Shown here: in pieces, positions 47,712 through 48,862 of the stretch
How the letters are laid out: each line of letters opens with the position of its first letter
How positions within the stretch are numbered: the first letter of the stretch is position 1
Assembly (NCBI GenBank): GCA_000002435.2
Contig: CM018790.1
Length of the DNA: 64,000 nt
Direction: 5' to 3' (one strand)
Source: Giardia intestinalis
Taxonomy: Eukaryota
Notes under the pieces: model-generated
The model's database searches: none
Told to the model about the DNA's origin: nothing
Seen by the model: the letters and a program-made list of their open reading frames with translations, nothing else
Program-made: the position numbers and the translations under genes

Positions 47712-47937
47712 CTTCAGTGTTACCCATTCCCATAGTGCAATCCGTCACATTAGAAGATCAAGGATGTTTTAGCTTAGTCTTTGCAACCATCTATGAAGAG
47801 TGCTTCGCAAAGGAAAGAACATGGCAAAACTTTATTGGGACTTTGTCCAGCACTCTTCTAAGCCTAGAATCCGCATTGCCAACGACTAGGGAAGTATCGA
47901 ATGTTCTAGGAAACCGCTTGGAAGCACAGCCCACGAT

Positions 47938-48862
47938 ATGTTGCCCTGCAAGAGCCTTTCCCTTTAACTCGGCGCATTCAGCCATGCACTCCCACCTCTA
48001 TAGAATTCCGAGACGTCTGCTTTTCCTACAAGACGGGCTGCGATATTCTACATGGCTTGACCCTGTTTGTTCATCCCGGTCAGAAGGTTGCTATCGTGGG
48101 AGGTCGGGGATTGGCAAGTCCACGATCATCAACCTCTTGACGCGGCTATACACCACACCCCAGCATCAGGACACTTCGTCGCCCGGAATCTATCTCAATG
48201 GCAGGGCTATAGGGTCCATCCCACGCGAGGAGCTACGGAGGCTTATAACAGTCGTCCCGCAGGATAACATACTCATCAGGGGCTCTGCCACGGACAACAT
48301 CGCCTATGGACAGCCTCGCAAGCTCCCGGGCTCCCACGCAGAAGAGGAGCAGAGGCGCTACATCCGAGAAGTCATTCGGCTATGCTACGAGGCTTCCCGT
48401 GTTGTTGCGGCTGAAGAGCTCCTGGGAGACGCACCATACAGTGGAACCCTGCAGGGCCTTTCTGGGGGACAACGCCAACGGGTAGGAATTGCCAGAGCTG
48501 TCGCACGTGGAGGCAGCGTTCTTGTGCTCGACGAGGCGACGTCGGCACTCGACGAAGAGACAGAGAAGCGGGTCCTCCAACAGCTATTCCGCTCACTGGA
48601 CCCCAACCAGAGCGTCGTCATTATCAGTCACAGACTCTCCACTCTCCGGTATGTCGACCTGATTTATGTCCTAGATAATCCAGATGGCAGTGGAGCGCGC
48701 GTGGTAGAGTCAGGCTCGTACGACTGGTTCGTTGCCGAAAGCCAATATCTGAAGGATGCAGGCCAGGATATCTCTGACCTTGTGAGTAACTGTGGCTGTA
48801 GCAGCGCAGGTGTTACCCCAGGCTTCTCCCATGCAACTCTTGATGCAAAGGGGGATCCGTAG
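47938..48862 (+). pseudogene. ABC-transporter ATP-binding (NBD) domain remnant: Walker A, ABC signature, Walker B and H-loop are present, but there is a 1-nt frameshift inside Walker A and no transmembrane domain upstream. The upstream frame is full of stops and enters the inverted repeat at 47711.
   Basis: Frame A (codon starts congruent 0 mod 3) reads SIEFRDVCFSYKTGCDILHGLTLFVHPGQKVAIVG. The reading then shifts to frame B: GRSGIGKSTIINLL ... LSGGQRQRVGIARAVARGGSVLVLDEATSALDEETEK ... VVIISHRLSTL. The canonical atcgtgggNaggtcg is one nucleotide short (atcgtgggaggtcg). Frame A has stops at 47733, 47751, 47775, 47859, 47865 and 47887. Confidence 0.6.

What the first reader, a model, noticed from the sequence alone, without database searches (positions are those of the whole stretch)
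47712..48862. ABC-transporter NBD remnant with a Walker A frameshift abutting the outer end of the right inverted arm
The reading switches frames between HPGQKVAIVG (frame A) and GRSGIGKSTIINLL (frame B) because one nucleotide is missing inside Walker A (atcgtggg-aggtcg). Downstream ABC signature LSGGQRQRVGIARA, Walker B VLVLDEATSALD and H-loop ISHRLST are intact. There is no transmembrane domain: the upstream frame is littered with stops back to the duplication boundary at 47711. This suggests the duplication event (or a prior rearrangement) truncated an ABCB-type transporter gene, leaving a decaying 3' fragment. It also marks the right arm as the likely original and the left arm as the copy.
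Basis: partly seen in the sequence, partly recalled or inferred. Interest (0 to 1): 0.5.

Follow-up and report, generated by a model that had tools for sequence, protein, structure and literature searches.

The report
Giardia ABC-transporter pseudogene at old breakpoint
This is a dead, partial extra copy of a Giardia ABC-transporter gene, left behind when an ancient chromosome rearrangement split two neighbouring genes; the intact gene survives on another chromosome and keeps overwriting the fragment, so the finding is real but fairly ordinary.

Summary
The window is Giardia intestinalis WB. In detail: 47944-48862 encodes a complete ABC nucleotide-binding domain (Pfam ABC_tran E=9e-24 once repaired), broken by a one-base deletion in the Walker A codons (GGG at 48098-48100; GGGG in every other copy). 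Two independent Logan (SRA-run) assemblies carry the same deletion, so it is very probably not a PacBio error.

ABC homology stops at 47944, not at the arm boundary 47711; the 232 nt between are unrelated. The VSP inverted repeat did not truncate the gene. The same junction is present in isolates DH (AII) and P15 (assemblage E). An intact 933-aa parent gene (XP_001710177) sits on another WB scaffold. In assemblage B the intact gene lies directly upstream of GL50803_8348. In DH and P15 it is followed only by the first ~125 nt of 8348.

So window 47944-49028 is a breakpoint duplication from a rearrangement older than the A/E split. It left a 3' ABC stub here and a 5' 8348 stub at the other locus.

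The fragment stays 96-99% like its own genome's intact copy (97.9% in P15) but only ~84% like fragments of the other assemblage. That indicates repeated gene conversion between chromosomes. It is a known kind of event; interest is low to moderate.

The parts
47944..48862 (+). delta-ABC: 3' partial copy (residues ~628-933 plus stop) of the 933-aa ABC gene XP_001710177. It holds the linker and a full NBD and is a pseudogene in WB.
   Evidence: blastn/tblastn homology to the intact genes starts at 47944. Pfam ABC_tran E=9.3e-24 after repair. Best solved-structure matches are ABCB1/ABCB4/Ste6 NBDs.
48098..48100 (+). G-run carrying the 1-nt deletion (GGG instead of GGGG) in the Gly codon that begins Walker A (GRSGIGKST, 48098-48124 in frame B).
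   Evidence: Base-by-base alignment and pattern scan of all copies. The same deletion is in independent contigs L018 and L019.
47712..47943 (.). 232-nt junction segment between the arm end and the ABC homology. It is not ABC-derived. It is the foreign side of the old rearrangement junction.
   Evidence: No similarity to intact ABC loci. Conserved next to the fragment in DH L013 (92%) and L014 (93%) and in P15 L017 (~78% across window 47530-48456).
48863..49028 (+). Remainder of the duplicated segment: 41-nt spacer plus the first 125 nt of GL50803_8348. A diverged copy of this piece follows the intact ABC gene in DH and P15.
   Evidence: L015 and L016 align to the window up to 49028 and then diverge together.
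48904..49500 (+). GL50803_8348 (198 aa, hypothetical). This is the intact downstream partner of the ancestral ABC-8348 gene pair.
   Evidence: Exact match to KAE8302487.1. The assemblage B orthologue lies directly after the intact ABC gene (L001; 71% identity over 145 aa).
43641..47711 (.). Right arm of the perfect inverted repeat: the last 870 nt of the VSP gene plus 3.2 kb of GC-rich (58%) unannotated DNA.
   Evidence: the repeat finder I1, 4071 nt, 100% complementary. Colinear with DH L013 and P15 L017.
36103..40173 (.). Left arm of the inverted repeat. It carries the 3' end of a frameshifted, unannotated VSP pseudogene.
41211..44510 (+). VSP gene (1099 aa, KAE8302486.1) with about ten identical 225-bp tandem repeats and a CRGKA C-terminus.

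Best explanation
The feature is a non-processed pseudogene. It is a 3' partial duplicate (residues ~628-933) of the Giardia ABC gene XP_001710177/KAE8303138, whose intact copy lies on the 1.97-Mb WB scaffold.

Proposed history:
1. Ancestrally the ABC gene lay immediately upstream of GL50803_8348, as it still does in assemblage B.
2. Before assemblages A and E split, a rearrangement separated the two genes. The breakpoints were staggered. One was at ABC codon ~628 (window 47944). The other was 125 nt into 8348 (window 49028).
3. The ~1085-bp segment between the breakpoints ended up on both products. One product kept an intact ABC gene plus a 5' stub of 8348. The other, this window, kept an intact 8348 plus a 3' stub of ABC, joined to foreign DNA (the 232-nt segment and what is now the outer end of the VSP-flank arm).
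4. The stub has no start, no transmembrane region and no function. Recurrent ectopic gene conversion from the intact gene keeps it looking young.
5. In the AI/WB lineage it also lost one G in the Walker A codons. In P15 it lost 181 nt covering the signature, Walker B and H-loop.
6. In assemblage A a module (window 47421-48895) was copied once more to a third locus, next to GL50803_9865.

Shown: the breakpoints, the copies and their distribution, the deletion, and the identity pattern.
Inferred: the staggered-break mechanism, the direction of conversion, and the lack of function.
For: Organism and locus: exact protein matches to WB MCM3, NEK and GL50803_8348 on the 1,539,535-bp scaffold.

Intact parent: P0143 (933 aa) equals XP_001710177.1. 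Its 867-aa re-annotation KAE8303138.1 is on the 1,973,847-bp scaffold, next to GL50803_0017314.

Breakpoints:
- Homology to intact loci runs from 47944 to 49028 only.
- The same two breakpoints occur in DH (L013/L015) and P15 (L017/L016).
- Beyond 49028, L015 and L016 are colinear with each other and not with the window.

Polarity: in assemblage B the intact ABC gene is directly followed by a full 8348 orthologue (L001). The upstream neighbour (501/610/603 aa) is orthologous in A, E and B.

Concerted evolution:
- P15 fragment vs P15 intact is 97.9% over 47944-48456, but ~84% vs assemblage A fragments.
- Assemblage A fragments vs A intact copies are 95-99%, but ~85% vs P15 intact.
- DH's fragment shares DH-specific variants with DH's intact copy.

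Disablement:
- The 1-nt deletion is present in the window, L018 and L019 only.
- P15 has a 181-nt deletion of window 48457-48637.
- No N-terminal coding sequence is in the window.
- The fragment is not annotated in WB.

Context from the literature: synteny breaks near VSP/NEK genes are common in Giardia (PMC3091692). Identical inverted VSP pairs are known (PMC2996952).
Against: 1. I could not read the DNA of WB's own intact locus, so the 8348 stub there is inferred from DH and P15.
2. Four AI-type Logan contigs (L002, L003, L004, L008) join an intact ABC gene directly to a complete 8348. I read these as k=31 repeat chimeras. They follow the intact-locus copy to 48874 and then match the window at 10,636 of 10,638 bases. 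L007 starts at 48828, which is 48858 minus 30. A genuine structural polymorphism or allele is not excluded.
3. dN/dS between fragment and intact copies is low (0.15-0.35). Gene conversion explains this, but it would also fit selection on the fragment. DH keeps an open 271-aa ORF, annotated as 'Transporter'.
4. In P15 the DNA after the 8348 stub is itself a partial duplicate (ITPK fragment plus a sulfatase copy). The event may therefore have been more complex than one staggered break.
5. The sequencing platform of the two confirming SRA runs was not checked.
Confidence: 0.8

Rival explanations
1. One reading: formation of the 4-kb inverted VSP duplication cut an ABCB gene that used to be intact at this spot, leaving a fragment that is simply decaying.
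For: The fragment lies only 232 nt from the outer end of a perfect 4071-nt inverted repeat. The arm is GC-rich foreign-looking DNA.
Against: ABC homology ends at 47944, not 47711. The arm-end / 232-nt / fragment junction is conserved in DH and P15. DH has the inverted repeat with the same outer boundary but diverged outer arms (68%), so repeat and junction are separate, older features. The intact gene exists elsewhere in the same genome. The fragment is far too similar to that gene (97%) for its age unless it is being converted.
Confidence: 0.04
2. The frameshift is an assembly artefact (a PacBio homopolymer error), and WB really encodes an open stand-alone NBD ORF like the 271-aa 'Transporter' annotated in DH.
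For: The WB reference is PacBio-based. Its authors report homopolymer frameshifts that were corrected only where at least 50% of at least 10 Illumina reads agreed (PMC7000408). Short-read mapping is ambiguous in a 97%-identical repeat. DH's two fragments have GGGG.
Against: Two contigs from different SRA runs (L019, L018) show GGG on the same fragment-specific haplotype (T at 48080, G at 48106, T at 48112) and with the 232-nt junction upstream. The site survived the Illumina polishing. Even when repaired, the ORF lacks a start codon, a promoter context and the whole N-terminal 627 residues.
Confidence: 0.06
3. The fragment is not junk. It is kept as a soluble NBD protein in lineages where it is open (DH), or as a conversion partner that exchanges sequence with the intact transporter gene.
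For: All catalytic motifs are intact apart from the single deletion. There is an open 271-aa ORF in two DH copies. dN/dS is 0.13-0.35 in all pairwise comparisons. The fragment has persisted since before the A/E split.
Against: It is independently disabled in WB/AI (frameshift) and in P15 (181-nt deletion removing signature, Walker B and H-loop). The DH ORF starts after the A-loop/beta-1 region (MHGLTL...), so it would lack part of the ATP site. Low dN/dS is what gene conversion from a constrained donor produces. There is no annotation or expression evidence in WB.
Confidence: 0.08
4. The partial copy arose by a duplicative insertion, for example double-strand-break repair that copied about 1 kb from the ABC-8348 locus, or movement of the 47421-48895 module. 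On this reading the ABC/8348 split in A/E is a separate event.
For: A module (47421-48895) has demonstrably been copied to a third locus in DH and in an AI-type sample (L014, L018). In P15 the DNA beyond the 8348 stub is also a partial duplicate.
Against: The reciprocal pattern is what one staggered break predicts: an ABC stub beside intact 8348, an 8348 stub beside intact ABC, sharing the end points 47944 and 49028. A simple insertion does not predict it. Assemblage B has the single contiguous arrangement.
Confidence: 0.1

Closest known systems
Duplications at rearrangement breakpoints produced by staggered breaks, as described for Drosophila and Anopheles inversions (from my own knowledge, e.g. 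Ranz et al. 2007; not retrieved here)
   Same: A short segment (about 1.1 kb) is present at both junctions of a rearrangement. Each copy is truncated on the opposite side. Both flanking genes survive intact in one copy each.
   Different: Here the two products are on different chromosome-scale scaffolds, so it is a translocation-type event rather than a simple inversion. The copies are in the same relative orientation. They have been homogenised by gene conversion. The far side of one junction is itself a duplicate in P15.
Giardia synteny breaks associated with VSP/NEK/Protein 21.1 genes (Jerlstrom-Hultqvist et al. 2010, PMC3091692; Klotz et al. 2023, PMC10132058)
   Same: An A/E-versus-B difference in gene order, sitting beside a VSP cluster and NEK kinase genes.
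   Different: Those papers list breaks without base-level junctions. I found no mention of this ABC fragment or of a breakpoint duplication in them. The published A/B translocation involves chromosomes 1 and 5, so it is probably not this one.
Identical inverted VSP gene pairs of G. lamblia WB (Adam et al. 2010, PMC2996952)
   Same: The neighbouring repeat is a head-to-head VSP pair. Its arms are 100% identical, end abruptly, and are separated by about 3.5 kb, which lies within the reported 2.2-3.8 kb range.
   Different: Only the last 870 nt of the two ORFs are shared. Identity runs 3.2 kb beyond the stop codon, against the reported 139-729 bp. One member is a frameshifted pseudogene. The pair is a neighbour of the ABC fragment, not its cause.
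ABCB-type (type IV exporter) half-transporters such as MsbA, Sav1866 and the ABCB1 halves
   Same: The NBD is most similar to ABCB NBDs: 36-42% identity to bacterial subfamily-B proteins, and best PDB hits ABCB1/ABCB4/Ste6. The parent has the N-terminal-region-then-NBD order.
   Different: The fragment has no membrane domain at all. Even the parent's 627-residue N-terminal region is not recognised as ABC_membrane by Pfam or by PDB sequence search.

Membership tests
ABC transporter nucleotide-binding domain (Pfam PF00005) | Significant full-length match to the ABC_tran profile | tested here: met
   Repaired translation: E=9.3e-24, 85 bits (cut-off 25), profile positions 1-137/137.
ABC transporter nucleotide-binding domain (Pfam PF00005) | Walker A, Q-loop, LSGGQ signature, Walker B, D-loop and H-loop all present in one reading frame | tested here: not met
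   All motifs are present. However, the Walker A glycine codon run has lost one base, so the beta-1/A-loop part is in frame A and Walker A onward is in frame B.
ABCB-type exporter (membrane domain plus NBD) | Transmembrane domain (PF00664-like, six helices) encoded upstream of the NBD | tested here: not met
   Neither the N-terminal 627 aa of the parent nor its DNA matches anything in the window. Frame A has 6 stops in 47712-47997.
ABCB-type exporter (membrane domain plus NBD) | NBD closest to subfamily B | tested here: met
   Top database names are subfamily B/MsbA. Top PDB hits are ABCB1, ABCB4 and Ste6. NCBI's 'ABCA subfamily' label on the DH and GS proteins is not supported by these matches.
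Duplicated (non-processed) pseudogene | An intact paralogous parent in the same genome | tested here: met
   XP_001710177/KAE8303138 on the 1.97-Mb WB scaffold.
Duplicated (non-processed) pseudogene | Disabling lesions (truncation, frameshift) | tested here: met
   Lacks codons 1-627. 1-nt deletion. Independent 181-nt deletion in P15.
Duplicated (non-processed) pseudogene | Relaxed selective constraint (dN/dS near 1) | tested here: inconclusive
   Pairwise dN/dS is 0.13-0.35. The copies exchange sequence with a constrained gene, so the ratio is not informative.
Duplicated (non-processed) pseudogene | No transcript or protein | not testable with these tools
   No expression data available. The fragment is only known to be unannotated in WB.
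Breakpoint duplication from staggered breaks | The same segment at both junctions, with reciprocal truncation of the two genes | tested here: met
   ABC stub plus full 8348 (window, L013, L017). Full ABC plus 8348 stub (L015, L016). Shared limits 47944 and 49028. Not directly checked at WB's own intact locus.
Breakpoint duplication from staggered breaks | A related lineage with the unbroken single-copy arrangement | tested here: met
   Assemblage B contig L001: intact ABC followed at 18 nt by a full-length-type 8348 orthologue. Polarity rests on the stubs. No outgroup outside G. intestinalis was examined.
Concerted evolution by ectopic gene conversion | Paralogues within a genome more alike than orthologues between genomes, although the duplication is older than the split | tested here: met
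   Identity matrix (97.9% within P15 against ~84% between P15 and assemblage A fragments). Shared DH-specific variants.

The most novel reading that the evidence does not exclude
The ~1.1-kb repeat pair (ABC stub beside 8348 on one chromosome; intact ABC plus 8348 stub on another) is an active site of inter-chromosomal recombination in Giardia. On this reading the AI-type contigs that join an intact ABC gene to a complete 8348 (L002, L003, L004, L008) are not assembly chimeras. They would be real recombinant chromosomes or alleles in which crossover between the repeats has restored the ancestral adjacency. That would be a segregating reciprocal translocation within near-clonal AI/WB stocks, or between the two nuclei. 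The fragment would also act as a standing conversion partner for the transporter's ATPase domain.
Probability: 0.1. Interest if true: 0.6.

Novelty: new member of a known kind. Interest (0 to 1): 0.27.

Why it matters
For annotation: the WB fragment should be tagged as a pseudogene paralogous to XP_001710177. The 271-aa 'Transporter' proteins of DH and the 434-aa/292-aa ORFs are not genes of their own. Read-depth or SNP calls over the NBD of the real transporter, a candidate drug-efflux gene, will be confounded by two extra copies.

For genome evolution: this gives a base-resolved junction for one of the many Giardia synteny breaks. It gives a polarity (assemblage B ancestral, A+E derived). 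It is also a clean example of gene conversion between chromosomes continuing after the AI/AII split, in an organism whose recombination and sexuality are debated.

It is also a caution that k-mer-based public assemblies build chimeras across 1-kb repeats.

None of this is unexpected in kind.

Tried and rejected
1. Large DNA virus (herpes-like) origin, suggested by the long ORFs and inverted repeat. Rejected once Pfam showed MCM, a P-type ATPase and ankyrin-NEK kinases, and VSP CRGKA tails. Exact matches to WB proteins confirmed this.
2. Rfam scan of the window: nothing.
3. Looked for the missing membrane half left of the left arm, in case the VSP cassette had been inserted into the gene. No hit with the 599-aa or the 627-aa query, or with the DNA.
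4. Looked for relics of the P15/GS/DH neighbour genes (sulfatase, 109-aa ORF, DUF676, 603/610-aa, 1703-aa and 1135-aa proteins) in the arms and the 232-nt segment. None found. Arm ORFs have no Pfam hit. The origin of the 232-nt segment and of the arm's 3.2 kb remains unknown.
5. Tried to fetch WB's own intact locus. I used accession order instead.
6. dN/dS as a test of function: uninformative because of conversion.
7. Treated L002-type contigs as evidence for an intact gene at this locus. Rejected as probable chimeras, but kept as the 'novel case'.
8. Literature searches for an earlier description of this fragment found none.

Full report
ORGANISM AND SETTING

The window has long intron-free ORFs encoding a prenyltransferase, a P-type ATPase, MCM, and ankyrin-repeat NEK kinases. 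It also has cysteine-rich proteins ending in CRGKA. Exact look-ups identify it as Giardia intestinalis WB (ATCC 50803), on a 1,539,535-bp scaffold. The genes include MCM3, a NEK kinase, GL50803_8348 (48904-49500) and GL50803_00102071 (31653-34565).

The 'inverted arms' are 36103-40173 and 43641-47711. They are 4071 nt long and 100% complementary. Together they form a head-to-head VSP pair. The right member (41211-44510, KAE8302486) has about ten identical 225-bp repeats. Identical inverted VSP pairs are a described feature of this genome (PMC2996952).

CHECKING THE OBSERVATION

Frame A gives IEFRDVCFSYKTGCDILHGLTLFVHPGQKVAIVG (48000-48101). Frame B gives GRSGIGKST from 48098. In frame B the Q-loop, LSGGQRQRVGIARA, VLVLDEATSALD and ISHRLST are all intact. 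With one G restored, the protein matches Pfam ABC_tran end to end (E=9.3e-24).

Every other copy of this sequence that I could retrieve has ATCGTGGGGAGG where the window has ATCGTGGGAGG.

The WB reference is PacBio-based, and its authors report homopolymer frameshifts that were only partly corrected with Illumina reads (PMC7000408). Two contigs assembled from different SRA runs answer it. L019 (SRR12825854) is 99.7% identical to window 47207-49266 with no gap. L018 is from SRR32129102. Both carry the same GGG, on the same fragment-specific haplotype. I did not verify the sequencing platform of those runs.

WHERE THE ABC SEQUENCE REALLY STARTS

Homology to intact ABC genes begins at about 47944, which is 232 nt outside the arm. 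That 232-nt piece has 44% GC, against 58% in the arm and 56% in the fragment. It is unrelated to ABC genes.

Frame B happens to be open from 47558, which produces a meaningless 434-aa ORF.

Nothing resembling the missing N-terminal 627 residues is present anywhere in the 64 kb.

THE PARENT GENE

A search with the repaired NBD found one close relative among thousands of bacterial subfamily-B hits. Following it led to a 933-aa protein identical to WB XP_001710177.1, 'Multidrug resistance ABC transporter ATP-binding and permease protein'. It was re-annotated as the 867-aa KAE8303138.1 on a different, 1,973,847-bp scaffold, next to GL50803_0017314.

The window fragment corresponds to residues ~628-933 of this protein. 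Solved-structure matches to it are ABCB1, ABCB4 and Ste6, over the NBD only. Its N-terminal region is not recognised as an ABC membrane domain by sequence.

THE SAME JUNCTION IN OTHER ISOLATES

DH (sub-assemblage AII) has three copies:
- an intact 944-aa gene (L015);
- a 271-aa open fragment next to its 8348 orthologue (L013);
- another fragment next to the orthologue of GL50803_9865 (L014).

L013 is colinear with window 46488-49000. That span covers the arm end, the 232-nt segment and the fragment. L014 matches 47421-48895.

P15 (assemblage E) also has the arm end, the 232 nt and the fragment upstream of its 8348 orthologue (L017). There the fragment carries a 181-nt deletion of window 48457-48637, which removes the signature, Walker B and H-loop.

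The truncation therefore predates the A/E split and has nothing to do with WB's perfect inverted repeat.

The repeat itself is old as well. DH has it with the same outer boundary, but the outer ~350 nt of DH's arms are only 68% alike, while the inner part is 99% alike. DH's right arm matches WB's arms at 94% and its left arm at ~69%. This suggests that WB's left arm was recently overwritten from the right.

HOW THE FRAGMENT AROSE

In DH and P15, the intact ABC gene is followed by the spacer and only the first ~125 nt of 8348-like sequence, up to the equivalent of window 49028. After that come unrelated genes that are colinear between DH and P15.

In assemblage B, the intact gene is directly followed by a genuine 8348 orthologue (L001; 71% identity over 145 aa, well past the 125-nt point). 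The upstream neighbour of the ABC gene is orthologous in all three assemblages.

So a ~1085-bp segment (47944-49028) lies on both sides of an A+E-specific rearrangement, and the truncations are reciprocal. The simplest mechanism is a break staggered across the ABC-8348 boundary, with fill-in that duplicated the overlap. This step is inferred, not shown.

In P15, the sequence beyond the 8348 stub is itself a partial duplicate: a 109-aa piece of a 340-aa inositol-tetrakisphosphate kinase, plus a second sulfatase copy. The event may therefore have been more complex than one staggered break.

WHY IT STILL LOOKS NEARLY INTACT

If the copies had diverged independently since before the A/E split, the fragments of A and E should resemble each other. 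Instead, each fragment resembles the intact gene of its own genome:
- P15 fragment vs P15 intact: 97.9% over 47944-48456.
- P15 fragment vs assemblage A fragments: ~84%.
- Assemblage A fragments vs A intact copies: 95-99%.
- Assemblage A fragments vs P15 intact: ~85%.

DH's fragment shares DH-specific variants with DH's intact gene. This is the signature of repeated ectopic gene conversion between chromosomes.

Conversion also explains the low pairwise dN/dS (0.13-0.35) without invoking function. Independent disabling lesions in WB/AI and in P15 argue against function.

AN APPARENT CONTRADICTION

Four Logan contigs (L002, L003, L004, L008) show an intact 933-aa ABC gene running straight into a complete 8348 and 10 kb of downstream genes.

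These samples are AI/WB-like. Downstream of the stop codon they differ from the window at only 2 of 10,638 bases, positions 48865 and 48874. Upstream they carry the intact-locus haplotype, with a protein 100% identical to XP_001710177.1.

The switch therefore falls in a ~32-nt stretch shared by both copies. Other contigs from such samples start at 48098, 48183 and 48828. For 48828, which equals 48858 minus 30, the start is exactly where a 31-mer graph would fork.

I conclude they are repeat-induced chimeras. A real recombinant chromosome is not excluded, and that is my 'novel case'.

VERDICT

The interpretation needs revising. The fragment is not a gene cut by the VSP inverted duplication. It is a breakpoint-duplicate pseudogene of an ABC gene that survives elsewhere. 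It is older than the A/E split and has been kept similar to its parent by gene conversion.

This is a new, well-resolved example of known processes. Its value is mainly for Giardia annotation and for documenting inter-chromosomal conversion.

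Noticed in passing
window 36103-40173 and 43641-47711: The head-to-head VSP pair shares only the last 870 nt of the ORFs, but identity continues 3.2 kb past the stop codons with zero mismatches. Adam et al. 2010 report flank identity of only 139-729 bp for identical pairs. In DH the arms have the same outer boundary, but the outer ~350 nt are only 68% alike. WB's arms therefore look recently homogenised, right to left.
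   Followed up: partly
window 40160-40200 (- strand), compared with 43620-43660 (+): The left VSP is out of frame exactly at the inner arm boundary. There are 11 nt (ggtggaactac) where the right gene has 12 (gataaaagttat) before the shared ctcactccaacaaatcag. This splits it into 292-aa and 294-aa ORFs. It is not annotated in WB and is probably a VSP pseudogene.
   Followed up: partly
window 41256-43580: About ten head-to-tail copies of a 225-bp (75-aa) unit, nine of them 100% identical, inside VSP KAE8302486. The 809-aa antisense ORF (41153-43582) is a by-product of the repeat.
   Followed up: no
window 44511-47711 (and the mirror 36103-39303): 3.2 kb of 58% GC DNA downstream of the VSPs. It has ORFs of 125-197 aa without any Pfam hit. 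Only 68-78% of it is conserved in P15, far below the level for genes. Origin unknown.
   Followed up: partly
L014 671-2146 (DH, AHGT01000035) and L018 (SRR32129102): A third copy of the module window 47421-48895 (arm end, 232 nt, ABC fragment) lies next to the orthologue of GL50803_9865, whose WB gene is on the 2.76-Mb scaffold. The AI-type copy (L018) also has the 1-nt deletion, while DH's does not. The deletion has either spread between fragments by conversion, or that contig is a mosaic.
   Followed up: partly
L016 13165-16630 (P15, downstream of the intact ABC gene): The 109-aa ORF clusters at 90% identity or more with part of a 340-aa inositol-tetrakisphosphate 1-kinase (EFO61367). The adjacent sulfatase (EFO64083) clusters with a second sulfatase (EFO61366) on another contig. 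The far side of the rearrangement junction is therefore also a segmental duplicate with a truncated gene.
   Followed up: no
L012 9171-11800 (GS, assemblage B): The assemblage B orthologue is annotated as two ORFs (277 aa and 599 aa, overlapping by 4 nt) that together cover residues ~62-933 of the 933-aa protein. This is probably a 454 homopolymer error or a real frameshift. NCBI labels these proteins 'ABCA subfamily', which the NBD matches do not support.
   Followed up: partly
L002, L003, L004, L008 (Logan contigs): Public k-mer assemblies join the intact ABC locus to the 8348 locus across about 32 nt of shared sequence. These are likely chimeras spanning two chromosomes, which is a caution for anyone using such contigs for synteny.
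   Followed up: yes
window 52199-54826 (- strand) compared with L002 13296-15875: The ankyrin/kinase-like gene is called as 875 aa in the window and DH but 859 aa in the Logan contigs, although the DNA is identical. This is only a difference in start-codon choice by the gene caller.
   Followed up: no
literature: PMC4570179: Ankarklev et al. 2015 note above-average read depth for 'an ABC transporter' gene in AII isolate AS98. The extra NBD copies described here could be the cause, but the gene's identity was not checked.
   Followed up: no
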